DNA of 64,000 nt from an uncultured delta proteobacterium (GTDB lineage Bacteria; Desulfobacterota; Binatia; Bin18). Under the pieces are notes generated by a model. It searched no databases and was not told where the DNA came from. It saw only the letters and a list, made by a program, of their open reading frames with translations. The stretch is taken from contig CAVTCR010000057.1 in the NCBI GenBank assembly GCA_963733195.1, positions 2,589 through 66,588 on the forward strand, given 5' to 3'. Positions 1 to 19,659 of this stretch are shown here, piece by piece (the stretch's first letter is position 1; the number at the start of each line of letters is the position of its first letter). The position numbers were made by a program, and so were the translations under genes.

Positions 1-829
1 TTTTTGTTCGAGGTTCTGCATCTTATGAAACCAACACCGAATCCGTAACGACTTGGGCCACATCGTGTCGATGGCTTTAGTCAGCCCCAACGCCCCATCC
101 GTGGTAATTGTCACCGGGGGCTGCATGCCACGCTTGACCAAGTCCCGCAGCACTTCCACACAACTCTCATAACTCTCACTATTGGTAAGGGAGAGGCTGA
201 GGAGCACTTTGCGCCCGTCCTCACAGATTGCCCACACACAGAGGACGCCAGTTTTCTGCCCCCACCGCCGTAACGGTTCGTACACGGTATCAATAAAGAG
301 GTAGGCTACCGGCTCGTGGCTGAGATCCCGCGTACGAAACGCTTCGTATTCCTCCGTTAAACTCTCGGCAATGTCACTGACCGTGCTTTTGGACAGGACA
401 AACTGCCCCACTGCTTGCTCTAAGCCGTACTCAATATCCCGTTGTGACATCCCGCCCACATACATCTCCACAATTAATTTCCTGAGCACGTCACTGGTAT
501 TGCCCACGTTGCCCCACAATTGCGAGCGATACGCGTCCTGCTGTCCGCGAATCTGTGGCACTTTGACATGCAGCACCCCTTCGCCCGTTTTCAGCGTCCC
601 GGTCTCATAGCCATTGCGATAGCCCACCTTCTCGCCACGGGCTTCGTACCGTCCGCGCCCTAAGGCCACCGCTTGTTCCTCCTCCAACGCTTCTTGCAAA
701 ATCCGTTCGGTCGACAGTCGCACCAACAAACTCAATAACTCTTCTCCACTTTGCCCGTTGGCCTGGCCTTGCAGTAAGGCACGGAGTGCCTGGGCCTTTT
801 GCTCACTTGGTGCTATCCTCTTCTCCATA
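1..829 (-). mobile_element. IS256-family (mutator-type) transposase gene, 5' part; runs off window edge
   Basis: Reverse-strand translation from ATG at 829 reads MEKRIAPSEQ...GYRNGYETGTLKTGEGVLHVKVPQIRGQ...RCWFHKMQNLEQK without a stop to position 1. GYRNGY and RCW.HK..N motifs are typical of IS256 transposases. Not in the ORF track because it has no stop inside the window. Confidence 0.8.
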
Positions 830-901
830 CGGGAGTCCTCCTTCTTCTTGGTGGTTAATCGTCTTCACAATCTGATTACCTACCGCAGAAGTGTCTCCCG
901 T

Positions 902-2268
902 CTACTCCCCTCCGGTTACAGGGATTCTAGGACATAACCCTCGTTCGCCAAATGCCACCAGCGCCTCCGCGCGCTCCTGGGCGATGCGTCCGTCCCCGCG
1001 CGCTAGATGAAACAAGGTCGCAAGCATTAAGGCATGCCCGAGACTAAAAGGCTGGCCGAGCTCCCGCGCCAAGTGTACCGCCTCGTACATCCGCCTCAGG
1101 GATTGATCGGGAAACCCCAGAACCCAGAGGGTCCGAGCTATATTGGCGAGACTCACAACCTGCGGGTTGAACCCTCCGTAGAGGGACGCCAGCGCTTGGT
1201 GCTGAGGCTGGTAGAGCGCTAAGCTCTGCTCCAGCGCCCCCCAGCACGGACAAACTCCCCGCGAAATAGGCAGGTTGTCCCTACGGCAACGTGTGCTTCG
1301 AGGAGCAACCCAGCGTCGTTCGTCTGCTCTGCGACCTGTAAGCACTCCTCTGCCAGCGCCTGCGTCATGCGCAGCTCGCCCCGGATCAGGTGAAACACCC
1401 AAAGGCCCCACAGCGCCGGAAAGCGCTGTAGGGAGTCACCCAGTTGGGCACACAACGCGCGGGCACGGCGGTAGTATTGTTCCACCGCTGGTGCGGTATA
1501 CCCTTGAGCGGCCATGAAGGCTGGTCCCAGTGCGAGTTGCAGCGTGAGTTCCTGCGCGGCCCGTTCTGGCGTCTCTGGGCGCGTCATGAGCAGCTCCAGT
1601 GCTGCATTGAGCTGGCTGATCGCTTCGAGGTTGGCTGAGCGTTGCACCGCTTGTTGTCCGGCCAAGTGGAGATACTCGATGGCCTTCTCTGTGTTGGCAC
1701 TCCGCCGGTAATGATGGGCCAAGTCACTGTAGTGCTCAGGGAGTGTCGCGGCGTACACGGTTTCGAGCCCCTGACCGGTGCGCTCGTGGAGCACTTTGCG
1801 TTGCTCCTGCAGTACCGTGCCGTACGCCACCTCCTGCGTCAGCGCATGCTTGAAAATATATTCGACTTCGGGAAAGGCGGGTTGCTCATAGAGAAACTCC
1901 TTGCGCTGCAACGAGGCCAGCAGGCGATACAGCTCTGCTTCGGGTTGAGCAATGACCTGGCGGATCACGCTCATCGGGAATTGCCGACCAATGACGGAGA
2001 GCCGCTGGAGCAGGGCTTTTTCATCCGGGGCTAAACGATCAATGCGCGCGGCGAGGACGCCTTGGACGGTGGGCGGAATATGAAGGTCGGTAGGGGCGCT
2101 GCTTGCTGCGCCCTCGGTGGGCAGGGCAAGCCCTGCCCCTAAAGCATCGCGGACCAATACTCCCTGCTCCACTAGCTCCTGCACGATCTCTTCTATGAAG
2201 AACGGCGTACCTTCGGTTTTGTCTAGGATGAGGTGTTTGAGGGCGGGTAGGGGCGCACCAAGGTGCAC
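902..2268 (-). pseudogene. 3' portion (AAA ATPase and TPR region) of a large cyclase-ATPase-TPR regulator, cut off from its 5' part by an IS4 insertion and frameshifted
   Basis: ORFs 1219..2268 and 902..1411 overlap in different frames. Motifs HLILDKTEGTPFFIEEIVQELVEQGVL and LAARIDRLAPDEKALLQRLSVIG are typical of LuxR/AfsR-like AAA+TPR regulators. The 5' border abuts the IS4 inverted repeat at 2268. Confidence 0.6.
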
Positions 2269-3722
2269 TGGTCACAACTTAACGAAGGAGGATGAGAGCG
2301 TGACAGCGGAAGGAGATGCCGAAGGGAAGGTGGTACGCTATCTTCTGCCTACCCCAAGCCAGGAGGTAGGAGATGGCCAAACGCCGCCCGCGGCAGCATC
2401 ACAATCCCGATTTTCGGCACCGCGTCCCCGGACCGCTGCCCGCCGTGGCGGAGATTGAGGCGGAGCTCTTCGCGTTGCTCACCCCGGCATTGCTGGCACC
2501 CCGCCAATTGGAACGGTCTGACCCGCGCAATCCCCAGCGGCGCATTCGGCTGCGGGCGCGGATTTTGACGTTGCCGGTGATGGTGGCGCTGGTCGTGAGT
2601 TTGGTCTGGCGGCGGTTGGGCTCGATTGCGGAGGTCCACCGCGTGTTAGTCCAAGACGGGTTGCTATGGGTGTCGCCCCTGCAGGTCAGTGAACAAGCAA
2701 TCGCCAAGCGACTCGATACGCTGCCCGCCAGTGCACTGGCGACCCTCTTCACAGAGGTAAGTGCACGGTTGCAAGCCCAGCCCCCACCGCAGTTACCCGG
2801 GCTGGAAGGCTGGACGGAGATGCGCAAGCAGTTTCCGCGCGTTGCGATGGTGGATGGCTCGACGCTGGAAGCAATTCGGAAAAAGACGCAGACGCTGCAA
2901 GCTCAGCCCGGTCTCGTGCTCGCGGGCCGGATGATGGTGATGGTCGAAGCCTTTACCCATCGCCCCCTGTGGCAACTCTATACCGAGGAGGCAGCGGCCA
3001 ATGATAAACGCTTTGCCCCGGAGATTCTGACGGCGCTTCCAGAAGGGGGATTGCTGATTTTTGACCTGGGCTTCTTCAGCTTCTTGTGGTTTGATGACTT
3101 CACGGAGCAACACAAGTATTTTGTGACCCGCCTACGGCAAAACACGGCGTACCGCACCACGCACGTGCTCAGTCACGGCCCGTACTACCGGGACGAACTC
3201 ATTGAGGTGGGCCTCTACCGCTCCAATCCCTGTCGGCATCCGTTACGCCTAGTCTCCGTGTTGTGGCACGGGCAGTGGTATCGCTACCTCACCAACGTCC
3301 TCGACCCCGCTCAGCTCTCCGCGCGGCAGGTCTGTGAGCTGTATCGCCGCCGCTGGCGCATTGAAGATGCCTTCTTGGTGACTAAACGCGTGCTTGATCT
3401 CGCCTACCTCTGGAAAGCCTCGGCCAATGGCATGCAGCTCCAACTCTATGCCACGCTTCTCTTCTACCTTGTCCTCCTCCATGTCTGCCAGCAGGTCGCG
3501 CAGAGTCTCAACGAACCCTTGGAGCAGATCTCGGTCGAGATGGTTTTTCGCGCCTTCTATCACTATAGTCGCGCCCTCACGCGAGGCGAGACCCTAGAGT
3601 TGGTGCCGTACCTGGTCCACCATGCGAAGCTCTTAGGTCTCGTCAAACGTCGCCGCCAGCGCCATCGCGAGATCCAGCAAACCGAGCAATAGTGTGGGGC
3701 TGTCCTTAAGTTGTGACCAGTG
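2268..3722 (+). mobile_element. IS4-family insertion sequence with 17-bp terminal inverted repeats
   Basis: CACTGGTCACAACTTAA at 2270-2286 and its reverse complement TTAAGTTGTGACCAGTG at 3706-3722 flank the transposase ORF. Confidence 0.75.
2373..3692 (+). CDS. IS4-family DDE transposase
   Basis: 439 aa. The C-terminal signature Y-x2-R-x3-E-x6-K (YRRRWRIEDAFLVTKR) is characteristic of the IS4 family. Confidence 0.85.
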   Translation: MAKRRPRQHHNPDFRHRVPGPLPAVAEIEAELFALLTPALLAPRQLERSDPRNPQRRIRLRARILTLPVMVALVVSLVWRRLGSIAEVHRVLVQDGLLWVSPLQVSEQAIAKRLDTLPASALATLFTEVSARLQAQPPPQLPGLEGWTEMRKQFPRVAMVDGSTLEAIRKKTQTLQAQPGLVLAGRMMVMVEAFTHRPLWQLYTEEAAANDKRFAPEILTALPEGGLLIFDLGFFSFLWFDDFTEQHKYFVTRLRQNTAYRTTHVLSHGPYYRDELIEVGLYRSNPCRHPLRLVSVLWHGQWYRYLTNVLDPAQLSARQVCELYRRRWRIEDAFLVTKRVLDLAYLWKASANGMQLQLYATLLFYLVLLHVCQQVAQSLNEPLEQISVEMVFRAFYHYSRALTRGETLELVPYLVHHAKLLGLVKRRRQRHREIQQTEQ

Positions 3723-4818
3723 TATTGCAATACGCCCCTACGAATTCATGGAACAACCGCGACTTGCCTAACCCTGGCTCCCCCATTACGCCGACGACTT
3801 GGCCGTGCCCGGCTTTGGCTTGTTCCAACGCTACCTTCAGCTGTTCCATCTCGCTCTGCCGTCCGACAAACCGTGTTAGCCCTCGTCGTGCTGCTACTTC
3901 AAACGCGTGCGTAAGGCTCCCACACCCAGCACTTCGTAGATGTGCAGCGGTTCCTCTACTCCCTTAATCTGCGTGGGGCCCAGCTCCTTGAACGCAAAGT
4001 AGCCATCGGTGAGACGATGCGTGTAGGTTGAGACGACGATCGTGCCGGGAGTGGCGAACTGTTCCATGCGCGCCGCTAGGTTGGTCGAGTGGCCCACCGG
4101 CACGTAGTCCGCATGCAAGTCGTCTTTACGAATCGAGCGTAGCACCACTTCGCCTGTGTTTACCCCTACCCGCATCAACAGCGGGCGGATAGCCCTTTCG
4201 CCGCGTAACGTATCCGCATAGCGCCGCATTTCTTCTTGCATGCGTAGCGCGGCATAGAGCGCGCGTTGGGGATGATCTTCATGGGCCAGCGGCGCGCCGA
4301 ACAGGGCAAAGATGCCATCCCCCAAGGCTTGCGCGACATAGCCCTCATACTGATGTATGGCGTCCATCATGAGCTGCAGCGCAGGATCAATAATCGCCCG
4401 CGCCTCTTCGGGATCGAGTCCTTCGATCAACGCCGTCGAGCCTTTGAGATCGGCAAAGAGGGCCGTAATCGTCTTGCGTTCACCCTCCGTCAGCGAGACC
4501 GCACGAATGCGCTCGGCCAGATGGGCAGGCGTGTAGTCGATGGGTCTAGGGTCTGGGTCTGGTGTCTCGCGTCTGGGGACGGGGAGGCTTTGACTCTGGA
4601 CTCTGGACCCTAGACTCTGGACTGCTTTGACCGACCCACACCAACACTTTACCATCCTCATCTACAGCGAGTCGCTTGGCCTCTATGATTTCGGCAGTGA
4701 GGTCCGCAAGATAATCATCCTCCAAATCAAAGCGCCGCTTCAACGCGCGATACGTCACCCGCCCGTCTCGTTGTAAGAGACCAATGATTTGTGCAAGCAG
4801 ATCATCGAACGTTGGCAT
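3723..4818 (-). pseudogene. 5' portion of the same regulator gene: N-terminal domain, low-complexity linker, class III nucleotidyl cyclase domain, start of AAA domain
   Basis: ORF 4546..4818 (MPTFDDLLAQIIGLLQRDGRVTYRALKRRF...) shifts frame inside a GGGTCT/GGACTCT tandem repeat (4541-4640) into ORF 3894..4661, which holds the cyclase domain (ITALFADLKGSTAL...GDGIFALFGAP). After a TAG at 3891 the reading continues in another frame as FVGRQSEMEQLKVALEQAKAGHGQVVGVMGEPGLGKSRLFHEF (AAA Walker A) up to the IS4 end. Confidence 0.6.
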
Positions 4819-5144
4819 TGCTCCCGCCTCCTAGAGAATCCCGACACGTTTGCTTAGCAACTACAGATTTCTTTTTCCCGATTGATCCGCGGAGTATAGG
4901 GCAAGCATGCGTAAATCACCAGGTTCTCGACAGTTCGTCTTATAAGGGAGTGTACGTCAAGCGTGGGAATGGTATAGGACGAACAGTATTCGCCATAAAA
5001 CTTTCATGAGACGAATGGATTGAGTGTATGCAGAGGAGACAAAAATGAGCCAAAAAAACACTCTATGAACGTCTTGGCGGCTACGATGCCATCACGGCTG
5101 TGGTGAATGATCTGTCTTCAGAGTGAAAATTATGGAGGACCTTC

Positions 5145-5964
5145 ATGGCAGAAACTAACATCAGTTTTTCTGGTTCCATTCCGCAAATGTACGATCGCTA
5201 TCTCGGCCCGGTGCTGTTTGAGCCCTATGCTGCCGATCTTGCCCGCCGCGTAGCTATGTCCATGCTACTGGTCCAGTGTTGGAAATGGCTTGTGGCACTG
5301 GCATTGTCACTCAACAGTTACGTGCTCACCTTGCCCCTGAGATTGAGATCGTTGCCACCGATCTTGAGTCAGCCGATGCTCGACTATGCGCGGACAAAAT
5401 TGCCAACGCTGAAGAATGTGACTTGGCGACAAGCAGATATTGCGGCCTTGCCATTTGCGGATGCCGAATTTTCTGCCGTGGTGTGTCAATTCGGCTTGAT
5501 GTTTGTACCCGACAAGCAAGCTGCCTTTCGTGAAGTCCGTCGGGTGTTACGCAAAGGTGGGGTGTTCGCTTTTAACGTGTGGGACAGTATGGCTGCCAAT
5601 CCCTACACCCAGCTCATTCAGGAGACACTTGCCAAAATATTCCCGGTAGACCCGCCGCAATTTTTCACGGTGCCCTTTAGCCTTCATGATCGTGAAGACG
5701 TTGCGACAGTTACTGACTACGCATGACTTCAGTGACGTACAGCTTGAGACCGTAACGCTAGAGGCGCGCAGCGAGAGTGCCAAAGCCCTTGCTACCGGAT
5801 TCATTCAAGGCTCGCCGCTGAGTACCGCGATTCAAGAGCGCGGGGCGTCCTTCGAGTCCGTCATTGAGGCGGTGACGGAAGCCTTAGCGCAGCATGGTGG
5901 CGCAGCACCGTTTCGCTCAACTATGCAAGCAGTGGTTGTGACTGCACGAGCAGGCGCAGTGTAA
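5145..5964 (+). pseudogene. Class I SAM-dependent methyltransferase with at least three frame changes
   Basis: Three overlapping ORFs (5145..5726, 5276..5533, 5686..5964) together give YDRYLGP...LEMACGTGIVTQQL (motif I)...ALPFADAEFSAVVCQFGLMFVPDK...LRKGGVFAF. No single frame spans the gene. Confidence 0.55.
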
Positions 5965-6201
5965 AGTGATGACAGCCTAGAGAAACGCTGCGGCATGATG
6001 TGGAGCTGCACTTATGGGTTCCTTCTCCCTAAGGGAGAAGGTCAGGATGAGGGAAGAGGAAGGGTCATCTTTGTTGAATTCCCTCACCCTTGCCCTCTCC
6101 CAGAGGGAGAGGGAATTACGTCCTCCAACGCCAGAAGTTGAGCCGAACAGTGTTGATCCTTGCAATCGCAATCAGAACAGTGCTCGTAGGAGAAAGCCAT
6201 T

Positions 6202-8238
6202 ATGGAGACCAGCCAACAACGCACGATTCGCACGATGTGCCCCATGAACTGCCATCCTACACTGTGTGGCATGCTGGTGGATGTCGAGAATGGGCGACTC
6301 GTGGGCGTGCGGGGTGATAAAGAGAATCCTGATAGTCAGGGTTTCCTGTGCGTGCGTGGGCAGGCTTCGCGGGAAATTATCGACAATCCAAAACGGCTCT
6401 TATATCCGTTGATTCGCGACCGCCGTACGGATGATGCCTGGCGACAAGCCAGTTGGGATGAAGCACTCGATCTGATCACAACGCGTATGCAAGCGGTAGG
6501 GCGAGAAGCGGTCGGCGTCTGGTCTGGGCATGGCGTCTCCAGCACCAATTATGGAACCCGAATCTATGGCCACTTGCTGCGCCGCTTTGCCAATTTCTAT
6601 GGCTGTCAGTGGTGGAGCCCGACAATGATCTGCTGGGGACTCGGCGCGTTTGGGCTCGGTGTGACTGGTGTCCTGGAGACCAACACCAAAGAAGATATGG
6701 GGCAGCATGCGCAGTGTATTCTTCTCTGGGGTGCTAACCTGGCGAGCCAGCCAAACACCGCCCGCCATCTGGTAGCAGCAAAACGACGCGGAGCGTACAT
6801 AGTCACGATCGATGTACGGCAGACCGAAGCCGCGGCGCAGTCAGATGAAGTGCTGTTGCTACGACCGGGGACGGATGCAGCGCTGGCCCTAGCCATGATG
6901 TATGTCATTATCGAGGAAAAGCGGTATCACAAAGAGTTTGTTACACAGCATACGGTAGGTTTTGACGAACTAGCTGCTCATGTTCGGCAATATACTCCAG
7001 CCTGGGCGGCAGAAGTCACAGGTATTGCCGCCGAACGGATTGTCGCTCTTGCTCGTCGCTATGCGACAACGCAGCCAGCGATGATTGTGATAGGTGGCAG
7101 CTCGATGCATAAGGGCACCAACAGTTGGCAGGCAGGCCGCGCGATTTCCTGTTTGCCGGCGCTGACTGGCAACCTCGGGATTGCAGGTGGTGGCTTTGGT
7201 CCACGGCATGGCAGTTCGGCGCATGGCCAAGCGCTAGCCAATATCACTGCTGAAGAGCAACGCCCGCCTGGTAACTATATTCCCAATCAGATGGAACAAA
7301 TCACGGCGGCGTTGTGTGATGGTCGGGTGCGAGTCATGCTCCTGTTCGGCACCAATATGATGTCCTCGTTTGCCGACACCGAGCAACTGGCTGTCGGGCT
7401 TGGCCGGACAGATTTAGTGGTGAGCTACGACCTGTTTATGAATGATACGGCACGCCGCTTTGCTGATGTCATCCTGCCGAGCACCTCATGGTTGGAAGAA
7501 CTCGGTTGTAAGGCGACCAACACGCATCTGTATCTCATGGAGCAAGCGCTGCCACCGGCAGGCGAAACACGGACATTAAGCCAGGTTCTGCAAGGTTTAG
7601 CGCAACGTCTAGGTTTGCAGGGCTTCTTTCCGTGGGATTCCCAAGAAGGGCTCATCAATGCGATTTTAGACCATCCTTGTACGGGCCATGCCACAGTTGC
7701 GACGTTGCGACAGCATGGAGGAATGGTTCCACTCCAAATCTCGCATGTTGCCTATCCTCACCGACAGTTCCACACTCCTTCGGGTAAAGTTGAGTTCTTC
7801 TCCGCTCGTGCGCAGTCTTTGGGATTGCCACCGCTTCCGGTCTACGAAGAATCCTCGCCATCAGCATACCCACTCGCACTGAGCCAGGGACGAACACTCA
7901 CTCATTTCCATGGTTTCTACGACCACGGCCAGGCGCTGCCCACCTTAGCTCAGCTTGATCCTGAACCCTACCTGTGGATCTCTCCCAGTGATGCTGCTAC
8001 GCGTGGTGTACACGATGGAGTACCCATTCGCATCTACAATCAACGCGGTTCTCTCACTGCGCGTGCGCGCGTCACCGATCAGATTCCTGCTGGAACTGTG
8101 TGGATGCGTGATGGATGGGTTGGCTTGAACAATGTGACTGAAGGACATGCTGTCTTGCCTGATACTGCCGTGGACATATTCAGCTTCTCTGCTGGACAAG
8201 CAACCTTTGAGGCGAAGGTCGAGGTTGCTTCGTTGTAA
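6202..8238 (+). CDS. Molybdopterin oxidoreductase (MopB/DMSO reductase superfamily), catalytic subunit
   Basis: 678 aa. N-terminal Cys cluster CPMNCHPTLCGM...FLCVRG (4Fe-4S ligands), molybdopterin-binding core and C-terminal MGD-binding barrel (GTVWMRDGW). No partner subunit gene is adjacent. Confidence 0.85.
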   Translation: METSQQRTIRTMCPMNCHPTLCGMLVDVENGRLVGVRGDKENPDSQGFLCVRGQASREIIDNPKRLLYPLIRDRRTDDAWRQASWDEALDLITTRMQAVGREAVGVWSGHGVSSTNYGTRIYGHLLRRFANFYGCQWWSPTMICWGLGAFGLGVTGVLETNTKEDMGQHAQCILLWGANLASQPNTARHLVAAKRRGAYIVTIDVRQTEAAAQSDEVLLLRPGTDAALALAMMYVIIEEKRYHKEFVTQHTVGFDELAAHVRQYTPAWAAEVTGIAAERIVALARRYATTQPAMIVIGGSSMHKGTNSWQAGRAISCLPALTGNLGIAGGGFGPRHGSSAHGQALANITAEEQRPPGNYIPNQMEQITAALCDGRVRVMLLFGTNMMSSFADTEQLAVGLGRTDLVVSYDLFMNDTARRFADVILPSTSWLEELGCKATNTHLYLMEQALPPAGETRTLSQVLQGLAQRLGLQGFFPWDSQEGLINAILDHPCTGHATVATLRQHGGMVPLQISHVAYPHRQFHTPSGKVEFFSARAQSLGLPPLPVYEESSPSAYPLALSQGRTLTHFHGFYDHGQALPTLAQLDPEPYLWISPSDAATRGVHDGVPIRIYNQRGSLTARARVTDQIPAGTVWMRDGWVGLNNVTEGHAVLPDTAVDIFSFSAGQATFEAKVEVASL

Positions 8239-8266
8239 CGTGAGAGGAGCAAGCATTCGTGCTTGA

Positions 8267-8458
8267 AGGTGATGGAACGTAAGCTCACCGCTATAGTGAG
8301 CTAGGCCGAGACGCAGGAGGCACGAGCTGAGGTGGCAGAACTCCTGCGGATTAGCCCTAACTTTCTCTCTGGAAGGAGTGAAACGGGTGAGTGTCTTCAA
8401 AAATCCAGATGACTTAGAGCGCTGGCTTGCTGCCCTGCGCAAGGCGGGACTTAAATAA
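8267..8458 (+). pseudogene. Collapsed remnant of a cyclase/TPR family gene: first ~8 codons fused to last ~50 codons
   Basis: ATGGAACGTAAGCTCACCGC (MERKLTA, the family N-terminus) is joined directly to GCTATAGTGAGCTAGGCCGAG...CTGCGCAAGGCGGGACTTAAATAA. This matches the 3' ends of the paralogs at 30100-30273, 22440-22637 and 11600-11769. Confidence 0.5.
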
Positions 8459-8461
8459 ATG

Positions 8462-8545
8462 AAGAATGAAGTTAAATTAAAAATGATGAAGAATGAATAC
8501 GGAATGATGAATGAAGAACGAGAGTTGAGTGCTGAGTAAAAGAAA
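8462..8545. repeat. Purine-rich GA repeat (AATGAAGAATGAA / GAATGATGAATG / ACTGAGT units) that follows cyclase/TPR family 3' ends
   Basis: Same composition and unit motifs as 11771-11990, 13895-13960, 22638-22765, 24108-24215, 30274-30325 and, in reverse orientation, 63846-63880. Confidence 0.5.
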
Positions 8546-8572
8546 GAACAGGAAAGAGTCCCAACGCCCTTC

Positions 8573-8923
8573 CTACGACTTATTCCCCTCCTTGCTTGGC
8601 ACCAACGGTTCTAGCAGCTTGATCAGGCGTGGCACATCGGAGTTTACGGTTTTCCACACTTCATTCAGATCGACATCGTCGTACTCGTGAATGAGTTTAT
8701 CGCGCATACCCACAATTTTCCTCCAGGGAATCTCCTTGTGCTGCGTGCGAAACTCTTGGGACAGCCGTTTCCCTGCCTCGCCAAGAACAAGCAATTGGTG
8801 GAGGACAGCCGACAGCGTCTTAGCATCATCGAGGAAGGCTCTTTTGTTCATGCCTTCCCTAAATTCAACCGCCAAGCGGGCCGCTTTGAGCATATCCAGG
8901 AGCGTAGCACTATCGCGCGACAT
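8573..8923 (-). CDS. hepT: HepT-like (DUF86) toxin of a HepT/MntA TA pair
   Basis: 116 aa. R-x4-H-x-Y motif (MRDKLIHEY). Overlaps the upstream MntA-like gene by 14 nt. Confidence 0.8.
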   Translation of the reverse strand: MSRDSATLLDMLKAARLAVEFREGMNKRAFLDDAKTLSAVLHQLLVLGEAGKRLSQEFRTQHKEIPWRKIVGMRDKLIHEYDDVDLNEVWKTVNSDVPRLIKLLEPLVPSKEGNKS

Positions 8924-9224
8924 AGATTGGCTCCGCCGTACTCAAGATAGCCTCCCGGCGAATCCAGTTATCACTACGCTCAATTGCCCGTCGGCTGACC
9001 ACGTCTACCTTTCGACCGAGAATCGCTGACAACTCTTCTTCCATATCCACGTGGTCAAATAAGCTCCAGTCCGCATCCGACGCAAAGGTCGCCAGAATAT
9101 CCACATCGCTATCGGAACGAAAGTCATCACGCAGGACGGAACCAAAAAGAGCGAACTCAGTGATCTTCCACCGCTGGCAGAATTCGGTGATCTTGTCATG
9201 ATCAATAGAGATATGGGTACTCAT
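8910..9224 (-). CDS. mntA: MntA-like nucleotidyltransferase antitoxin
   Basis: 104 aa. GS...DxD nucleotidyltransferase motif (FGSVLRDDFRSDSDVDIL). Confidence 0.8.
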   Translation of the reverse strand: MSTHISIDHDKITEFCQRWKITEFALFGSVLRDDFRSDSDVDILATFASDADWSLFDHVDMEEELSAILGRKVDVVSRRAIERSDNWIRREAILSTAEPIYVAR

Positions 9225-9290
9225 ATTTCGATCTCCTCAAGATGTACACTTCCTTTAGCTCTATCCTCAAATACAAGATTCTCACAACGA

Positions 9291-9320
9291 TTGACAGATA
9301 CAAAGCAACAGCAGAATATC
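9291..9320 (+). promoter_or_regulatory. sigma70-like promoter of cyclase paralog 1 (TTGACA-N18-AATATC, CAGCAG before the -10)
   Basis: TTGACA at 9291-9296, 18-nt spacer ending CAGCAG, AATATC at 9315-9320. The same architecture sits upstream of the other paralogs. Confidence 0.45.
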
Positions 9321-9341
9321 TCTTCCCAGGAAAGCGAAACG

Positions 9342-11769
9342 ATGCCCACACACACCACGTCGGGTGGCATGGAACGCAAACTGGCCGCCATCTTTAGCAC
9401 GGATGTCGCAGGCTACAGCCGCCTCATGGGCGACGATGAAGAAGCAACCATCCGCACCCTCACAGCCTATCGCGACTGTGATCTCCTCCCTCATCCAGCA
9501 CATCGTGGCCGAGTGGTCGATTCCCCGGTGATAATCTGCTGGCCGAGTTCGCCAGTGTGGTCGATGCCGTGCGCTGCGCGGTCGAAATCCAACACGCACT
9601 CAAAGTGAAGAATGCCGAGTTGCCTGAACATCGGCAAGATGCAGTTTCGCATCGGCATCAACCTGGGCGATGTGATCGTCGAAGGCGAGCGGCTCTACGG
9701 CGATGGGGTCAACATCGCCGCGCGACTGGAAAGCTTAGCGATCCCGGCGGTATCTGTATCTCTGGGACGGTCTACGACCATGTCGAGAACAAACTTGCGC
9801 TGAACTACGAGTATCAGGGCGAGCAGACGGTCAAGAACATCGCCAAGCCGGTGCGAACGTATCGGGTAGTGATGGATGAAGCCGCAGCGGCCCTGGCCGA
9901 GCAAGCCGTGCTTCGACAAGCTCAGCACCGTAGCCCAGATGAAGCGCAGCGGAATCTCGGAAACACACCGGGTCCTGGATTGCGCTCCGCTCCATCCAGG
10001 CTACTTCCTGTGCCCGCGATGGGACATGTGGCAGGGCTGCTGCTCATCGCGGCAGCAATCGTAACCGTATGGTATATTTCTCGTTCCCCACTCAGTCCTC
10101 AGTCCTCAGCACTCAGTCCTGACGCCGCGCCAGCGGCGCTGCCGCTCCCCGACAAACCCTCCATCGTCGTCCTGCCCTTCGACAACATGAGTAAAGATCC
10201 CGCGCAGGACTACTTCAGCAACGGTATCACCGAAGTGCTCACCTCTGACCTCTCCCGCATCTCCAGCCTCTTCGTCATCGCCCGCAACACGGCCTTCACG
10301 TACCAGGGGAAAGCGGTGAATATCCAAGCCGTGGGGAAAGAACTGGGCGTACGGTACGTCCTGGAAGGCAGCGTCCAGAAGGCGGGGGAGCAAATCCGGA
10401 TCGTGACCCAGTTAATTGATACCACGACCGGCGGGCACCTGTGGTCGCAGCGCTACGACCGTCCGCTGCAAGACCTCTTCGCGCTCCAAGATGAGATCGT
10501 GCAGAAGATCGTGACCACGCTGAAGCTGCAGCTCACGTTGCAAGAGCAAGGGTACGTCGTGCGCAAACACACCGACAACCTGGAGGCCTACGATGCCTTC
10601 TTGCGCGGGCTGGAGTATCATTTACCGCTTCACGAAAGAGGCCAATGCCCAGGCGACGGCAGCTGTTTGAGAAAGCCATTGCGCTGGACCCACAGTATGC
10701 GGAGGCGTACGCGTTGCTGGGTTAGACCTACTGGATAGAGTGGGTCTTTCGCTGGAGCGCGGACCCCCAGACCATGGAGCGTGCGTTGGCGCTCGCGCAA
10801 CAGGCTCTTGCCCTGAATGATTCCCTGCCGACAGCCCATTCGCTCTTGAGCATCGTCTATGCCCAGAAACAGCAGTATGACCAAGCTATAGCCGAGGGCG
10901 AACGGGCGGTCGCTCTCGATCCCAACTATGCGGACAGCTATGCCGTACAGGCGGAGGTGCTGAACTTCGCGGGCCGGCCAGAGGAGGCTCTGCAGTCAGT
11001 GGAGCAGGCGATGCGGCTCAACCCCCGCTGTCCACCCTGGTACTTATACTAGGTTGGGCTTGGCCTACCGCATGACCGGGCGGTATGCCGAGGCGATCGC
11101 CACGCTGAAGGAAGTCATCAGCCGGGACCCCAATTTTATCTATGCCCACCTTCAGCTGGCTGGCAGCTACCTATGGCAGTGGATCGCTCAACAGAGCCCA
11201 GCTGCCCAGACGTTGGAGCCGGCAGTGGCGGCGGGGCAACGGGCCCTGGCCCTCAATGACTCCCTCCACTGGAACCACATAGTCTTGGGCTCTATCTATC
11301 TCTACCAACAGCAGTATGACCAGGCCCTGGCGGAGATGGAGCGGGCCGTGGCCCTCGCTCCTACTGAGGCGGGGAGCTATGCGGCTCTGGCGGAGGTGCT
11401 GAGCTATATGGGCAGGACGGAGGACGCCCTGGAGGCCGCCGCACAGGCGCTGCGCCTGAAGCCCATTATTGTGGACGCCCACTTAGACAGCGTCGGCGCT
11501 GCCTATGCCGTGGCCGGGCGGCCACGAAGAGGCGACTTGCCCCCTTGCAGCGTTATATCAGCCGCTATCCCAACATACTGCGCTGCCCATCTCATGCTGG
11601 CAGCGGTCTACAGCGAGTTAGGCAAAGAGCCGAGGCGCGAGCCGAGGTCGCAGAAGTGCTGCGGCTCAATCCTAAGTTCTCACTGGAGGTTCACAAGAGA
11701 GAATGCCGATCAAAGATCCAGCGGTGTTGGAGCGGCATATTGCGGCGTTGCGCAAGGCAGGACTCAAAT
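9342..11769 (+). pseudogene. Cyclase family paralog 1: class III nucleotidyl cyclase - TM - TolB-N-like periplasmic region - TPR; multiple frameshifts
   Basis: ORFs 9198..9608, 9557..10738, 10774..11052 and 11054..11815 are in different frames. Motifs: MERKLAAIFSTDVAGYSRLMGDDEEATIRTL; LPLPDKPSIVVLPFDNMS...YFSNGITE...RYVLEGSVQKAGEQIRIVTQLIDTTTGGHLWSQRYDRPL; TPR repeats. Ends at the conserved ...RKAGLK stop. Confidence 0.7.
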
Positions 11770-11770
11770 A

Positions 11771-11990
11771 ATGGAGAGTGGAGAATTGAAAATTAAGAAT
11801 GGGGAAACAAGCTGAAGGCTGAAGGCTGGAGGGGGAAATGAAGAGAGATGAAGGGAAAACGAAGAATTAAAAGTGATAAAGAATGAATGCGGAATGATGA
11901 ATACATTAGTAGTCAGTAGGCTCAGAATGCTGAATTATGAATGCAGAATGATGAGTGAAAGAAAAACTCGTGATCTTCCATTCATCGTTC
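11771..11990. repeat. GA-rich repeat block with an internal inverted copy (hairpin-capable)
   Basis: GAATGAATGCGGAATGATGAATAC ... TTCCATTCATCGTTCATCATT are inverted partners. GGCTGAAGGCTGGAGG units are also present. Confidence 0.5.
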
Positions 11991-12093
11991 ATCATTTATC
12001 GTTCAGCGTTTTTTGCCATGCTGGCTACTGTGTTCTCATTACGTTTTACGGCTCCGTTAGCCCTTAGCGCTCAGTTATGAGAGGCAGGAGAGA

Positions 12094-13884
12094 ATGGAAG
12101 AGCGTGTACTGCGGATCAGCTACGGAGTTCTCGTCAGACCCGTGGCCGGTTTTTTCTTGTTGGGCGTTCTTGGGTGGAGTGAACCACTATGGGTTGGCGC
12201 AGAAACCCGGCACGAGCAGTTGCCTGCTTACACCATTGCTTTTTCCTCGCTAGCCCCCTGGGACCTAGACGTGTTCATAGCCAACGCAGACGGCTCCGAA
12301 CCCCAGCCGCTCGCGTCACATCCAGACCTCGACTATAACGCTGCCTTCTCACCGGACGGACAGTGGATCGTCTTTACCTCGCACCGTGACGGTAATGCGG
12401 ACCTGTATCGGGTTCACCCCGACGGTAGCGACCTCCAGCGGCTCACGGATCATCCGGCCTTTGATGATGCCGCTGCCTTCTCCTCTGATGGGAACAGGAT
12501 CGCGTTTGTCTCCAGCCGCTCGGGGCAGGCTGACCTCTGGGTGCTGGAGGTAGAGGGTGGGAAAATCTGGAACGTCACTAACGCGCGAGGCGGAGACTTT
12601 CGTCCCGCCTGGTCTCCAGATGGTCAATGGCTCGCCTTCTCTTCCAACCGTGGCTCATCCTGGGATCAGAGCGAGATTTATATCATTCGACCCGATGGAA
12701 CCGAGCTGCGCCGCTTAACTGTTGCGCCTGGCTGGGACGGGAGTCCCATCTGGTCACCAGATGGTGCACGGGTGGCGTATTATTCTGAGCAGGACGGGAA
12801 TGCACAGATCTTTACGGTGGGGATCGAGAACGAGGCTTCTCCCCGAAGAGTAACAAAGAGTTCTTTTCCTACGCTCTCGCCGTACTGGATAGCGAAGGGA
12901 CGGCTGTGCTTTTCCCGCGCAGGGAGCGAGGGCGCACTTGGCTGTGTCGATCCTGATCAGAAGGAAGAGAACGCCATACAGTTGACCACCCGAGGCGAAT
13001 TTCTCTCCCCCAAATGGTCTCGGGATGGAAAACACGTGGTGTTTCATCGTCCGATCAACCGTCCCGCGCCAACTGTCCGCGAGCGGCGCAGTCCGGTGCC
13101 CGAAGTTCGTCTCCTGCGCATCGAGGGCGTATTTCCCTCGTTTGCGCCGACTGGTGACACGTTGAGCTTCACCGCCAATTTCCGCTCCATCGAACGCATG
13201 CGGCGTGACGGATCGGACCGACATGAGGTCTACCGAGATCCCCAGAGCCCCGCGTTTTTCCCCGCCTGGTCCCCGGTGGGCGACGTGATTGCGTTCACCA
13301 GAGGGCGAGTGTTTGCGGGTGCCAGCACGGATAACGAACTGTATGTGGTGCGGTCCGATGGCGCCCACCCACGAAACATCACCCAACACCCGGCGAACGA
13401 CGCACTGCCCAGTTGGTCCCCTGATGGCCAACGGCTAGTCTTTCGTTCGACCCGCGACGGGGACAAGGAGTTGTATGTGATCGGCATCGACGGCTCAGGG
13501 CTGACCCGCCTAACCATCTCGCCGGGCACCGACACGTTTCCTCACTGGTCTCCTGTGGGCGACCGCATTGTCTTTGCCAGTGACCGCACTGGGGACTTTG
13601 AGATCTACACCATGCGGCCCGATGGTGGCGATGTCCGACAACTGACCCACTCACCAGGGTTCGATATGCATCCGGTGTGGTCACCTGATGGCAAGTGGAT
13701 CTGCTTCACCAGCATGCGTGGTGGCTTGAAAGACGAGCATCCTCTCACTGGCAATCCGCAACCGTATGGGGACCTCTATCTCATGCGACCGGACGGCTCA
13801 GAGGTACAGGCGCTCACTGACGACCAGTTTGAAGATGGCACACCCGGTTGGGCGTCGCTGCTGCACGTCCCTGCGGCAGACTGA
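12094..13884 (+). CDS. Secreted PD40/TolB-like beta-propeller repeat protein
   Basis: 596 aa. N-terminal hydrophobic signal/anchor, then many PD40-type repeats (SPDGQWIVFTSHRDGNADLY; SWSPDGQRLVFRSTRDG...). Confidence 0.8.
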   Translation: MEERVLRISYGVLVRPVAGFFLLGVLGWSEPLWVGAETRHEQLPAYTIAFSSLAPWDLDVFIANADGSEPQPLASHPDLDYNAAFSPDGQWIVFTSHRDGNADLYRVHPDGSDLQRLTDHPAFDDAAAFSSDGNRIAFVSSRSGQADLWVLEVEGGKIWNVTNARGGDFRPAWSPDGQWLAFSSNRGSSWDQSEIYIIRPDGTELRRLTVAPGWDGSPIWSPDGARVAYYSEQDGNAQIFTVGIENEASPRRVTKSSFPTLSPYWIAKGRLCFSRAGSEGALGCVDPDQKEENAIQLTTRGEFLSPKWSRDGKHVVFHRPINRPAPTVRERRSPVPEVRLLRIEGVFPSFAPTGDTLSFTANFRSIERMRRDGSDRHEVYRDPQSPAFFPAWSPVGDVIAFTRGRVFAGASTDNELYVVRSDGAHPRNITQHPANDALPSWSPDGQRLVFRSTRDGDKELYVIGIDGSGLTRLTISPGTDTFPHWSPVGDRIVFASDRTGDFEIYTMRPDGGDVRQLTHSPGFDMHPVWSPDGKWICFTSMRGGLKDEHPLTGNPQPYGDLYLMRPDGSEVQALTDDQFEDGTPGWASLLHVPAAD

Positions 13885-13894
13885 CGGAGGAATA

Positions 13895-13960
13895 GAAAGA
13901 TAGGCTAAAGGCTGAAGGGAAAGGAAATAAAGAAGGGAAAATGATGATAACTACTCAGCC
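13895..13960. repeat. GA-rich repeat copy
   Basis: GGCTAAAGGCTGAAGGGAAAGGAAATAAAGAAGGGAAAATGATGATAACTACTCAGCC. Same family as 8462-8545. Confidence 0.45.
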
Positions 13961-13993
13961 GCAGAGCGGCGAATGTAGGAAGACTGGCAGCAT

Positions 13994-14023
13994 TTGACAA
14001 ACACGAGGAGCCAGCAGGATAAT
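13994..14023 (+). promoter_or_regulatory. Orphan copy of the cyclase-family promoter (TTGACA-N18-GATAAT) with no gene behind it
   Basis: TTGACA 13994-13999, spacer ending CAGCAG, GATAAT 14018-14023, then ATCGCCGC as in the other copies. An inverted-repeat-flanked element follows immediately. Confidence 0.4.
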
Positions 14024-14042
14024 CGCCGCTGGGGAAGTAGGT

Positions 14043-14268
14043 GTCATTGCGAGTTGTCCATAGCGCTGACGCTAAGCCTTCAAGTAAAAACGGGACACAT
14101 GCTCGTCCCCAGGCTCTGCCTGGGGACGGAATGAGACGGAGTCTCCTGACTACTGCCGTTCCAGGCAGAGCCTGGGACGGAGGACTGAAGATTTGTTTCT
14201 GAGCAGCGCAGCGAAGCAATCTTTGCCGAAAAGAGATTGCTTCGTCGCCTGCGGCTCCTCGCAATGAC
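14043..14268. mobile_element. MITE-like composite element: 11-bp terminal inverted repeats enclosing a REP hairpin pair and a 12-bp-stem hairpin
   Basis: GTCATTGCGAG (14043-14053) and CTCGCAATGAC (14258-14268) are inverted repeats. Inside are REP hairpins at 14106-14126 and 14159-14178, plus GCGAAGCAATCT...AGATTGCTTCGC. Confidence 0.45.
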
Positions 14269-14373
14269 AGGCCCCTGCATCTTCGCATGAAGTCAGGTAG
14301 TTATTAGATTTCTGATCCTTATGGGGAGAATGAGGAAGCAACCCTTCGCAAGAGCTAAGCGACGAGGGCAGGG

Positions 14374-16399: not shown

Positions 16400-16406
16400 G
16401 TGAGGT

Positions 16407-16730
16407 ATGGCACGTTTTGTGAAAGTCGCAAAAGTCGAGGAAATTCCTCCGGGGCAGGGCAAGCAGGTGATAGCGCACGAGAAGCCTATGGCCCTGTTTA
16501 ATGTTGACGGCGTCTTTTATGCCGTTAACCAGATCTGCCCGCATATGGGTGGTCCCCTGTCCGAGGGGACCCTCACCGGCACGGTTGTCCGCTGTCCCTG
16601 GCACGGCTGGACCTACTGTGTGGACACCGGCTTACCCGACCATCCTGGCGGACACTCGGTGGCGGCCTACGAGGTGCGGGTGGAGGGGGACGACATTTTG
16701 GTGGGCTGGCTGAAACGAGCTAGGCGATAG
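16407..16730 (+). CDS. Small Rieske [2Fe-2S] ferredoxin-like protein (NirD-like)
   Basis: 107 aa. CPHMGGPL ... CPWHGW Rieske ligands. Confidence 0.85.
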   Translation: MARFVKVAKVEEIPPGQGKQVIAHEKPMALFNVDGVFYAVNQICPHMGGPLSEGTLTGTVVRCPWHGWTYCVDTGLPDHPGGHSVAAYEVRVEGDDILVGWLKRARR

Positions 16731-16796
16731 GCTGTAGGCTACAGGCTATAGGGTTCTGAAGGCTGACAGCATATCACCTAACTTTGACCTTGTGGC

Positions 16797-19653: not shown

Positions 19654-19659
19654 AACACA

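What the first reader, a model, noticed from the sequence alone, without database searches (positions are those of the whole stretch)
830..4818. Single large cyclase-AAA ATPase-TPR regulator gene broken three ways: IS4 insertion, repeat-slippage frameshift, IS256 at its 3' side
Read on the minus strand from 4818, the gene has an N-terminal MPTFDDLLAQIIGLL... domain, then a low-complexity linker encoded by a GGGTCT/GGACTCT tandem repeat (4541-4640) where the frame slips. Next come the class III cyclase domain (3894-4661) and a TAG at 3891. The AAA start (GEPGLGKSRLFHEF) follows and is interrupted at 3722 by an IS4 element (2268-3722, 17-bp IRs). The gene resumes at 2268 (HLGAPLPALKHLILDKTEGTPFFIEE...), shifts frame again near 1219-1411, and ends near the IS256 transposase fragment (1-829). 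It records stepwise inactivation of one gene by two IS families plus slippage.
Basis: partly seen in the sequence, partly recalled or inferred. Interest (0 to 1): 0.5.

Follow-up and report, generated by a model that had tools for sequence, protein, structure and literature searches.

The report
Decayed cyclase gene with palindrome-seeking IS
This is the dead remnant of one large signalling gene, and the insertion sequence inside it did not simply interrupt it: it sits between two short in-frame DNA palindromes and about 190 codons between them are gone, which is an ordinary kind of gene decay with an unusually clear footprint.

Summary
They are an N-terminal domain, a class III cyclase domain, a Walker A start, an IS4-family element (2266-3722, perfect 17-bp inverted repeats), a helical/TPR part and an IS256-family transposase fragment (1-828).

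The [quoted passage not shown] reading holds only in part:
- All 120 intact homologs (about 1170 aa) have 178-245 residues between the two IS flanks.
- The IS has no target-site duplication, although relatives make 9-10 bp.
- Removing the IS leaves the flanks out of frame.
- The flanks are complementary halves of two 28-bp palindromes (GTAGGGGCG-N10-CGCCCCTAC). Intact homologs carry these in frame at exactly these two positions, 555 bp apart in locus L005.
- Relatives of this IS preferentially sit in the centre of such palindromes (20 of 139 flanks against 0.8% background).

The best explanation is palindrome-targeted insertion followed by IS-IS recombination or adjacent deletion. The three frameshifts are 1-nt-type lesions at about 4581-4590, 3900 and 1237-1242. 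The first lies between the tandem arrays, not inside them. About 185 C-terminal codons are missing at the IS256 border.

This is an ordinary pseudogene and interest is low to moderate. I could not exclude assembly or sequencing error.

The parts
1..828 (-). IS256-family transposase, first 276 codons (ATG at 828-826). It runs off the window start.
   Evidence: PF00872 Transposase_mut E=2.4e-44. NCBIfam NF033543 transpos_IS256 scores 180.8 bits against a cut-off of 150, model positions 5-222 of 338.
829..937 (-). Presumed non-coding left end of the IS256-family element. The border with the cyclase-family gene is at about 934-937.
   Evidence: Homology to intact homologs stops at '...ALVAFGERGL' (L codon 937-935). 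The following 'CPRIPVTGGE*' matches nothing. The end itself is inferred, because the inverted repeat partner lies outside the window.
938..1240 (-). TPR-region remnant of the gene (third reading frame). It is truncated, with about 185 C-terminal codons absent.
   Evidence: tblastn aligns P0001 residues 893-990 of 1174 to window 1240-947. See also the alignment. No match to residues 990-1174 anywhere in the 64-kb window.
1237..1242 (.). Frameshift 3: a 1-nt loss in a C6 run (G run on the coding strand).
   Evidence: The 'GEFVRAG' frame and the 'GALEQSLALYQ' frame overlap at nt 1240. Homologs read 'GEFVRARGALEQS'.
1240..2265 (-). Part of the gene after the AAA domain ('HLGAPLPALKHLILDKTEGTPFF...' through helical and TPR repeats).
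   Evidence: tblastn aligns P0001 residues 565-893 to window 2250-1237 at 78% identity. Identity to the best homologs is 69-75%.
2090..2117 (.). Degenerate third in-frame palindrome (P3): GTAGGGGCG-CTGCTTGCTG-CGCCCTCGG.
   Evidence: GTAGGGGCG occurs 4 times in the window against 0.29 expected, and 3 of the 4 are in this gene. The position corresponds to palindrome 3 of intact homolog L005 at aa 605.
2247..2265 (.). Half of palindrome P2: arm GTAGGGGCG (2247-2255) plus 10-nt centre (2256-2265). It encodes '(VGA)HLGAPL' on the minus strand.
   Evidence: Homologs carry 'VGAxxxxPL' immediately before 'LKxLILEKTEG'. The DNA palindrome is at the same site in L005, nt 3181-3208.
2266..3722 (+). IS4-family insertion sequence, 1457 bp. 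Perfect 17-bp inverted repeats at 2266-2282 and 3706-3722. No target-site duplication.
   Evidence: Inverted repeat. Ends conserved as CACYGGTC..AACTTAA and TTAAGTT..GACCRGTG in relatives. Flanks ACCAAGGTG and TATTGCAAT differ.
2373..3692 (+). IS4-family transposase, 439 aa, apparently intact.
   Evidence: PF01609 E=4.4e-18. NF033592 transpos_IS4_1 scores 186.7 bits against a cut-off of 115. 98% identical over 438 aa to metagenome protein P0122, with the motif YRRRWRIEDAFLVTK present.
3723..3741 (.). Half of palindrome P1: 10-nt centre (3723-3732) plus arm CGCCCCTAC (3733-3741). It encodes 'VGAYCNT(PL)' on the minus strand.
   Evidence: The identical peptide 'VGAYCNTPL' follows 'SRLFxEF' in intact homologs P0030, P0040, P0070 and P0102. 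The DNA palindrome is at the same site in L005, nt 2626-2653.
3723..3900 (-). Start of the AAA_16/STAND ATPase domain with Walker A (GEPGLGKS). The rest of the domain is deleted.
   Evidence: AAA_16 profile positions 10-45 of 167 are matched by the raw ORF. In intact P0014 the domain spans residues 332-518.
3899..3901 (.). Frameshift 2: 1-nt loss (coding strand TTG-GAA now TTGAA). It creates the TAG at 3894-3896.
   Evidence: 'ALRTRL' (one frame) and 'EVAARRGLTRFVGRQ' (next frame) overlap at nt 3900. Homologs read 'LRTRLQVAARRGLTRFVGRQ'.
3900..4583 (-). Class III nucleotidyl cyclase domain plus the distal part of the linker.
   Evidence: PF00211 E=8e-22, profile positions 6-179 of 183. 79-87% identical to homologs.
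4581..4590 (.). Frameshift 1, in the spacer between the two tandem arrays (4541-4578 and 4592-4623).
   Evidence: Window '...GQSSPESRVQSPESK' (one frame) then 'PVPRRETPDPDPRPIDYTPAHL' (next frame), against intact P0022 'GQSSPESRVQSLESKTFTPPDPRRETLDPRPIDYTPAHL'. Arrays.
4588..4818 (-). N-terminal about 65-aa domain plus the proximal linker. Start codon ATG at 4818-4816.
   Evidence: tblastn gives 48-59% identity to residues 2-94 of homologs and up to 79% with P0028. P0050 starts with 'MPTFDEVLAQV'.

Best explanation
Window 830-4818 (minus strand) is the non-functional remnant of one gene. The gene encoded an N-terminal domain, a class III nucleotidyl cyclase, an AAA_16 (STAND-type) ATPase and TPR repeats, about 1170 aa when intact. 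It carries five lesions:
1. An indel frameshift in the linker (about 4581-4590).
2. A 1-nt loss at about 3900.
3. An internal loss of about 185-200 codons, which removes nearly all of the ATPase domain after Walker A. An intact IS4-family element (2266-3722) sits in its place.
4. A 1-nt loss in a homopolymer (1237-1242).
5. Loss of the last about 185 codons at the border with an IS256-family element (about 935).

The central lesion works as follows.
- Shown: intact family members carry in-frame 28-bp palindromes (GTAGGGGCG-N10-CGCCCCTAC, read as VGAxxxxPL) directly after Walker A (P1) and directly before 'LKxLILEKTEG' (P2).
- Shown: this clade of IS4-family elements makes 9-10 bp duplications and prefers the centre of such palindromes.
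- Shown: in the window the IS is flanked by [P1 arm + P1 centre] on one side and [P2 centre + P2 arm] on the other.
- Inferred: either copies of the IS inserted into both P1 and P2, each duplicating the palindrome centre, and then recombined with each other. Or a copy in one palindrome made an adjacent deletion by intramolecular transposition into the other.
- Either route removes the roughly 555-600 bp between the palindromes and leaves one IS without a duplication.

The order of the five lesions is unknown.
For: Family and architecture:
- 120 full-length homologs carry PF00211, PF13191 and TPR families.
- The pieces map colinearly onto them.

Missing segment:
- The gap is 178-245 aa in every one of the 120 homologs.
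- The AAA_16 domain spans residues 332-518 in intact P0014.

IS ends and duplication:
- Ends are conserved in relatives.
- 9-10 bp duplications are seen in L003, L017, L028, L030, L035, L057, L062, L065 and L073. There is none in the window.

Palindromes:
- L005 (P0014) has perfect or near-perfect 28-bp palindromes at aa 376, 561 and 605, with P1 and P2 555 bp apart.
- 'VGAxxxxPL' recurs at the same three sites in many homologs, including the identical 'VGAYCNTPL'.
- Removing the IS plus one 10-nt centre rebuilds a 28-bp palindrome (0 or 2 mismatches) and an open frame. Removing the IS alone does not.

Target preference:
- L028 is a simple insertion: GTAGGGGCAC|GGCGCGCCG|IS|GGCGCGCCG|TGCCCCTAC.
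- AGGGGC lies at -19 to -15 from the IS end in 20 of 139 unique flanks, against 0.8% of background 25-mers (p=2e-19). Positions -16 to -13 are G-rich overall.

Same lineage on both sides of the IS: p=1.4e-6.

Frameshifts look like real decay rather than uniform error:
- 20 other ORFs of the window were scanned against Pfam. 17 show whole or essentially complete domain hits, 1 had no hit, and 2 are the halves of the split MFS gene.
- The adjacent methyltransferase gene also has 3 frameshifts.

Literature:
- Absence of a duplication is a usual consequence of IS-IS recombination or adjacent deletion (PMC11708052).
- Palindrome (REP) targeting is known for IS elements, including the IS4-family member ISRm22 (PMC1525189).
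Against: - No second copy of the IS, no reciprocal product and no intact ortholog from the same or a sister genome could be found. The source genome is not in the collections searched, so the two-step history is inferred from the footprint only.
- Most metagenomic relatives of the IS also lack a duplication. This may reflect chimeric assembly across a repeated element, and the same artefact could apply to the window.
- All three frameshifts are next to short G/C runs, a pattern that some sequencing platforms produce as errors.
- The upstream (cyclase) part is so conserved across the family, about 85% for almost any pair, that a join between two closely related paralogs cannot be excluded.
- The closest homolog is only about 73-75% identical in the downstream part.
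Confidence: 0.72

Rival explanations
1. One reading: one contiguous gene simply interrupted by an IS4 insertion, so that excision would restore it, plus a heptamer-slippage frameshift and an IS256 at the 3' side.
For: The IS has perfect 17-bp inverted repeats and an intact transposase. Gene-family sequence abuts both IS ends. Heptamer arrays exist near the first frame change.
Against: - 178-245 residues are missing between the flanks in all 120 homologs.
- There is no target-site duplication, whereas relatives make 9-10 bp.
- The excised join is out of frame.
- The heptamer array encodes a peptide that intact homologs conserve, and the frame change lies outside it.
Confidence: 0.02
2. Chimera. 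The sequences upstream and downstream of the IS come from two different paralogs, for example tandem copies. Each was hit by the IS in a palindrome, and recombination between the two IS copies joined them.
For: The family is multi-copy. Locus L005 carries two paralogs in tandem. Relatives of the IS lie in or next to several family members. The short N-terminal domain is closest to P0028 and P0025, which are not the closest for the downstream part.
Against: - Seven of the eight best matches of the cyclase/Walker A part are in the 16-member clade that is best for the downstream part (p=1.4e-6).
- The fragments are colinear, in one orientation and in the right order.
- There is no second family member in the 64-kb window.
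Confidence: 0.12
3. Artefact. The gene is intact, or only IS-interrupted, in the organism. The assembly collapsed two IS copies or mis-joined across a repeated IS, and the frameshifts are homopolymer sequencing errors.
For: All three frameshifts are single-base-type changes next to G/C runs. Most metagenome contigs with this IS lack a duplication, as expected if assemblers mis-join at repeats. Two other genes in the window also look frameshifted.
Against: - Frameshifts are clustered in three genes. Among the other ORFs scanned, the large genes (678, 728 and 596 aa) and most of the rest have whole or essentially complete domain hits.
- The methyltransferase shifts are not in homopolymers (sequence read).
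- The 3' truncation at the IS256 border is independent of any indel error.
- This cannot be tested without reads.
Confidence: 0.12

Closest known systems
Multidomain class III adenylyl cyclases fused to a STAND/AAA ATPase and TPR repeats (for example the Mycobacterium tuberculosis Rv0386 type, recalled from memory, and NCBIfam TIGR03903 'TOMM system kinase/cyclase fusion protein')
   Same: The order cyclase, then P-loop ATPase (AAA_16), then helical/TPR region. Intact homolog P0001 aligns to TIGR03903 over model positions 281-1266. The cyclase domain is similar to solved bacterial adenylate cyclases, for example 2w01 at E=3.5e-29.
   Different: The TIGR03903 score of 442 bits is below its 706-bit cut-off and there is no kinase domain. 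There is no LuxR-type C-terminal domain in the Pfam hits. There is a different about 65-aa N-terminal domain. The window copy is a pseudogene.
REP/palindrome-targeting insertion sequences: ISRm22 (IS4 family), IS1397 and ISKpn1 (IS3), ISPa11 and ISPpu9/10 (IS110); Tobes & Pareja 2006, PMC1525189
   Same: A transposase clade whose copies sit preferentially inside short GC-rich palindromic repeats. ISRm22 shows this already exists within the IS4 family (PMC1525189).
   Different: Here the palindromes are perfect 28-mers with no loop, and they lie in frame inside coding sequence rather than between genes. Relatedness of this IS to ISRm22 was not tested. Only about 14-21% of flanks carry the exact motif, so this is a preference and not strict specificity.
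IS-mediated deletions that leave an IS without target-site duplication (IS-IS recombination or adjacent deletion; Ngan et al. 2024, PMC11708052)
   Same: A single IS, no duplication, and loss of the DNA between two former positions.
   Different: Both deletion end points are defined by recognisable target palindromes. The footprint therefore shows both original insertion sites (the two different 10-nt centres), which is rarely visible.
Rickettsia palindromic elements and other repeats inserted in frame into protein-coding genes (recalled from memory, not checked here)
   Same: Short palindromic DNA elements are present inside ORFs and translated as extra peptide segments, in some members of a protein family and not in others.
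   Different: They are much shorter (28 bp against about 100-150 bp) and are perfect palindromes with conserved arms and variable symmetric centres. Mobility was not demonstrated here.

Membership tests
IS4 family insertion sequence | DDE transposase of the DDE_Tnp_1 / IS4 type | tested here: met
   PF01609 E=4.4e-18. NCBIfam NF033592 transpos_IS4_1 scores 186.7 bits against a cut-off of 115.
IS4 family insertion sequence | Y-(2)-R-(3)-E-(6)-K signature around the catalytic glutamate (family signature recalled from the literature) | tested here: met
   'YRRRWRIEDAFLVTK' at residues 324-338 of the window transposase, read from the alignment.
IS4 family insertion sequence | Terminal inverted repeats | tested here: met
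   Perfect 17-bp inverted repeat at 2266-2282 and 3706-3722, with 0.01 expected by chance. The ends are conserved in more than 60 relatives.
IS4 family insertion sequence | Direct target-site duplication flanking the element | tested here: not met
   The window flanks ACCAAGGTG and TATTGCAAT differ. Relatives show 9-10 bp duplications. The absence therefore describes this copy's history and does not argue against family membership.
IS256 family insertion sequence | Mutator-type (Transposase_mut) DDE transposase | tested here: met
   PF00872 E=2.4e-44. NF033543 scores 180.8 bits against a cut-off of 150. Only the first 276 codons are in the window.
IS256 family insertion sequence | Terminal inverted repeats and 8-9 bp duplication | not testable with these tools
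   The element runs off the window start. Only the presumed left end (about 829-937) is visible, and no second copy is in the window.
Class III nucleotidyl cyclase | Guanylate_cyc catalytic domain above the Pfam threshold | tested here: met
   PF00211 scores 78.1 bits against a gathering score of 21.9, profile positions 6-179 of 183.
Class III nucleotidyl cyclase | Metal-binding aspartate pair and transition-state Asn/Arg (roles recalled from the literature) | tested here: inconclusive
   The motifs 'FADLKGST', 'GDGIFALFG' and 'HSTNLAARME' are present in the translation. Residue roles were assigned by eye, not by a structural alignment.
STAND / AAA_16 P-loop ATPase | Complete NTPase domain (Walker A and Walker B) | tested here: not met
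   Only AAA_16 profile positions 10-45 are matched by the raw ORF. The segment that homologs place between Walker A and 'TEGTPFF' is absent. Intact homologs meet the criterion.
Functional protein-coding gene | One uninterrupted reading frame covering the family's architecture | tested here: not met
   Three frame changes, an internal deletion and a 3' truncation.
REP-like palindromic repeat | Short palindrome present in many copies across a genome, mostly between genes | tested here: not met
   There is no complete copy in the 64-kb window. Three of the four GTAGGGGCG arms are inside this gene. In L005 all three copies are inside the gene. The elements work like REPs as IS targets but are not shown to be genome-wide extragenic repeats.

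The most novel reading that the evidence does not exclude
Two linked readings remain open.
- The 28-bp perfect palindromes may be an undescribed class of small elements that spread in frame at three hot spots through a very large family of cyclase-STAND-TPR proteins of soil bacteria. They have conserved GTAGGGGCG arms and a variable but always symmetric 10-nt centre.
- A widespread clade of IS4-family elements may have evolved to use the centres of these palindromes as its landing site.

If both hold, palindrome-bearing genes become hot spots for precise, IS-mediated domain deletions.
Probability: 0.3. Interest if true: 0.5.

Novelty: new member of a known kind. Interest (0 to 1): 0.3.

Why it matters
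For annotation, region 830-4818 should be called one pseudogene with an internal IS-associated deletion, not an interrupted but restorable gene, and the methyltransferase gene next to it is also dead. The locus also gives a clean natural example of how target-specific insertion sequences produce deletions: both former insertion sites remain readable, because each left its own palindrome centre next to the surviving IS. The side observation is testable in public metagenomes and may be new. It is that in-frame palindromes recur at fixed positions in a large signalling-protein family and attract one clade of IS4 elements. It bears on how repeats and IS elements remodel multidomain proteins.

Tried and rejected
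- Exact-sequence look-ups of three window proteins (transposase, Mo-oxidoreductase, sigma-54 activator) found no record. The source genome and further IS copies from it could not be retrieved.
- The genome-contig scan with the transposase returned only four distant relatives (67-81%) and not the source genome.
- The second protein search showed only short metagenome contigs and no named close host. The best named hit was an Anaerolineales MAG at 83%.
- I considered that the IS ends lie further out, as the 39-nt, 77% inverted repeat at 2247-2285 and 3703-3741 suggested. I rejected this because relatives conserve the ends exactly at CAC...GTG, duplications in L003 and L028 abut those ends, and the outer 19 nt on each side are gene sequence shared with homologs.
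- I considered that recombination between P1 and P2 made the deletion first and a simple IS insertion followed. I rejected this because the two 10-nt sequences next to the IS differ (2 of 10 identical), so they are not a duplication.
- I considered heptamer slippage as the cause of frameshift 1 and rejected it.
- The test for a chimera of two paralogs is weak, because the cyclase part is about 85% identical between almost any two family members.
- DNA for P0030, which carries the identical 'VGAYCNTPL', was not available.
- A full-text search for the palindrome arm returned only unrelated eukaryotic papers.
- PADLOC hits were only generic cyclase-domain matches (PycC, about 50 bits) and do not place the family in a defence system.

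Full report
**1. What is in the sequence**

I translated the minus strand of 830-4900 in three frames. This gives, in order:
- An about 65-aa N-terminal domain starting at ATG 4818 ('MPTFDDLLAQ...').
- A low-complexity linker.
- A class III cyclase domain (PF00211, E=8e-22) ending at a TAG at 3894-3896.
- In another frame, 'EVAARRGLTRFVGRQSEMEQL...GEPGLGKSRLFHEFVGAYCNT', which is the start of an AAA_16 domain with Walker A.
- An insertion sequence.
- 'HLGAPLPALKHLILDKTEGTPFF...' for about 340 codons.
- After another frame change, about 100 codons of TPR-like sequence that end about 107 nt before the start codon (828) of a Mutator/IS256-type transposase. That transposase runs off the window.

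The tandem arrays (period 7 and 13) are real and lie at 4541-4578 and 4592-4623.

**2. The family**

A search with the concatenated pieces returned thousands of relatives. The best 120 are 887-1251 aa (most about 1100-1200). They carry Guanylate_cyc, AAA_16 and mostly TPR families, and come mainly from soil metagenomes and from MAGs labelled Binatia or Deltaproteobacteria.
- tblastn of several of them against the window shows colinear pieces in the expected order.
- The closest are about 86-89% identical in the cyclase/Walker A part and 70-75% in the downstream part.
- No near-identical ortholog exists in the collections.

**3. The IS4 element is not a simple insertion**

The transposase is a bona fide IS4-family protein:
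- NF033592 scores 186.7 bits against a cut-off of 115.
- PF01609 matches.
- The YREK-type motif is present, and it is 98% identical to metagenome protein P0122.

Its 17-bp inverted repeats are perfect and unique in the window. Eighty-four related copies from genome and metagenome contigs conserve the termini exactly at CAC...GTG. This fixes the element at 2266-3722, 1457 bp. Where relatives are simple insertions they carry 9-10 bp duplications (L003, L017, L028, L030, L035, L057, L062, L065, L073).

The window copy differs in three ways:
- It has no duplication.
- In every one of the 120 homologs, 178-245 residues separate the last residue aligned before the IS from the first aligned after it. 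In P0014 that stretch is most of the AAA_16 domain, which spans residues 332-518.
- Deleting 2266-3722 in silico gives an out-of-frame join.

**4. Why the IS is there and how the segment was lost**

The 19 nt outside each IS end are halves of two different 28-bp palindromes. On the coding strand the sequence reads:

GTAGGGGCG-TATTGCAATA-[IS]-CACCTTGGTG-CGCCCCTAC

Adding the missing arm to either half gives a 28-mer with 0 (P1) or 2 (P2) palindrome mismatches. These encode VGAYCNTPL and VGAHLGAPL.

Intact homologs carry the same kind of 9-residue peptide, 'VGAxxxxPL', at three fixed places:
- Directly after 'SRLFxEF'. This includes the identical VGAYCNTPL in P0030, P0040, P0070 and P0102.
- Directly before 'LKxLILEKTEG'.
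- About 40 residues further on.

The DNA of one intact homolog (L005 = P0014) shows that these peptides are encoded by perfect or near-perfect 28-bp palindromes GTAGGGGCG-N10-CGCCCCTAC at aa 376, 561 and 605. The first two are 555 bp apart. The window also keeps a degenerate third copy at 2090-2117.

The IS clade prefers such sites:
- L028 is a textbook case: GTAGGGGCAC|GGCGCGCCG|IS|GGCGCGCCG|TGCCCCTAC.
- AGGGGC sits at -19 to -15 from the IS end in 20 of 139 unique flanks, against 0.8% of background 25-mers (binomial p=2e-19).
- Positions -16 to -13 are G in 70-91 of 139 flanks.

The footprint [P1 arm + P1 centre]-IS-[P2 centre + P2 arm] is what two routes would leave. In the first, copies in P1 and P2, each having duplicated the palindrome centre, recombine with each other. 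In the second, a copy in one palindrome makes an adjacent deletion into the other. Both are the usual causes of a missing duplication (PMC11708052). Palindrome targeting by IS elements, including an IS4-family member, is documented (PMC1525189). A deletion by P1 x P2 recombination followed by a simple insertion is excluded, because the two 10-nt sequences next to the IS are different.

**5. One gene or two?**

The cyclase part is nearly saturated in identity across the family, about 85% for any pair, so it discriminates poorly. Even so, seven of its eight best matches belong to the 16-sequence clade that is best for the downstream part (p=1.4e-6). The pieces are colinear, and the window holds no second family member. 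I take both sides to come from one gene. A join between closely related paralogs remains possible, since tandem paralogs occur in L005.

**6. The frameshifts**

- Frameshift 1. Comparison with intact P0022 ('GQSSPESRVQSLESKTFTPPDPRRETLDPRPIDYTPAHL') places the change between 'SPESK' and 'PVPRRET'. That is about 4581-4590, in the spacer between the arrays. The heptamer array itself encodes a conserved peptide with the same length as in intact homologs. The second array differs only by an in-frame 6-nt repeat. Slippage of the repeats is therefore not the cause.
- Frameshift 2. A single G is lost at about 3900 (TTG-GAA becomes TTGAA), and this creates the TAG.
- Frameshift 3. One base is lost in a C6 run at 1237-1242.

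All three are next to G/C runs, so sequencing error is conceivable. I scanned 20 other ORFs of the window against Pfam:
- 17 show whole or essentially complete domain hits.
- 1 had no hit.
- 2 are the halves of an MFS gene (60808-62128) that appears split.

The methyltransferase next door (5145-5964) has three frameshifts of its own, not in homopolymers. After repair it recovers a full-length Methyltransf_11 hit. The clustering favours real pseudogenes, but only reads can settle this.

**7. The 3' end**

Similarity to homologs stops at '...ALVAFGERGL' (about 935-937). The next ten codons match nothing, and about 185 C-terminal codons are absent from the whole window. The distance of about 107 nt to the IS256-type start codon fits a terminal non-coding end of that element. 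However, its inverted repeat and duplication cannot be seen because the element leaves the window. This step is inferred.

**8. Comparison, novelty and verdict**

The gene belongs to the known multidomain cyclase-STAND-TPR proteins:
- Homolog P0001 aligns with TIGR03903 below its cut-off.
- The cyclase domain resembles solved bacterial cyclases.
- The PADLOC hits are only generic cyclase matches.

The IS elements are ordinary members of the IS4 and IS256 families. A pseudogene riddled with IS elements and indels is commonplace. What is slightly unusual is the legible footprint of a palindrome-targeted, IS-mediated deletion. The side observation also stands out: perfect 28-bp palindromes recur in frame at fixed positions in a large protein family and attract one IS4 clade. 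Relatives of the IS are also found in or next to other family members (L022, L062, L084, L039, L019). I found no description of these palindromes, but the search was shallow.

Overall:
- Novelty is 'new member of a known kind'.
- Interest is 0.3.

Noticed in passing
window 5145-5964 (+): The SAM-dependent methyltransferase gene, transcribed divergently from the cyclase pseudogene, is itself broken by three frameshifts (about 5252, 5370 and 5700). A hand-repaired translation recovers full-length Methyltransf_11 (1-95 of 95, 86.9 bits), against 26-95 for the raw ORF.
   Followed up: partly
window 60808-62128 (-): An MFS transporter appears split into two overlapping ORFs (255 + 205 aa, both hitting MFS_1). 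This is probably another frameshifted gene, with the overlap at 61361-61425.
   Followed up: no
window 6019-6117: There is a cluster of GC-rich hairpin repeats of a different type (CCTTCTCCCT/AGGGAGAAGG, and 37-nt arms 81% complementary). It lies in the spacer between the methyltransferase pseudogene and the molybdopterin oxidoreductase gene (6202-8238). It looks REP-like.
   Followed up: no
L005 2626-2653, 3181-3208, 3313-3340; homolog proteins P0002-P0113: Perfect 28-bp palindromes (GTAGGGGCG-N10-CGCCCCTAC, with the centre variable but itself symmetric) are translated in frame as 'VGAxxxxPL'. They sit at three fixed hot spots in many, but not all, members of the cyclase-AAA_16-TPR family. 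Other repeat-like peptides (for example 'SPLPRGERDRERV', 'VGAGLVPA...') occupy the same linker in other members.
   Followed up: partly
L022 about 340-391; L062 184 and 1604; L084 2026-2970; L039; L019: Relatives of the IS lie inside or next to other members of the same or related STAND gene families. L022 sits in a 'VGAHGR(APL)' palindrome at the equivalent linker. L062 is a simple insertion (duplication CACGGAGAC) in the ATPase domain.
   Followed up: partly
L006-L085 (metagenome copies of the IS): Only about a dozen of about 65 copies with both ends visible have a target-site duplication. Either this IS clade is often involved in rearrangements, or metagenome assemblers frequently mis-join flanks across it.
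   Followed up: no
window 3690-3692: The window transposase stops 6 codons earlier than the 445-aa relatives, with TAG just inside the right inverted repeat region. L001 has the same stop, so both variants circulate.
   Followed up: partly
window 28310-28810 and 21027-21198: There are weak matches (25-39% identity) to the cyclase domain of P0001 elsewhere in the window. This suggests other, unrelated class III cyclase domain genes.
   Followed up: no
window 1-20000 versus 42000-64000: G+C is higher in the first 20 kb (0.53-0.62) than in the last 20 kb (0.50-0.54). The palindrome arm GTAGGGGCG is almost confined to the pseudogene, so the gene and the IS may be imports from a lineage rich in such palindromes.
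   Followed up: no
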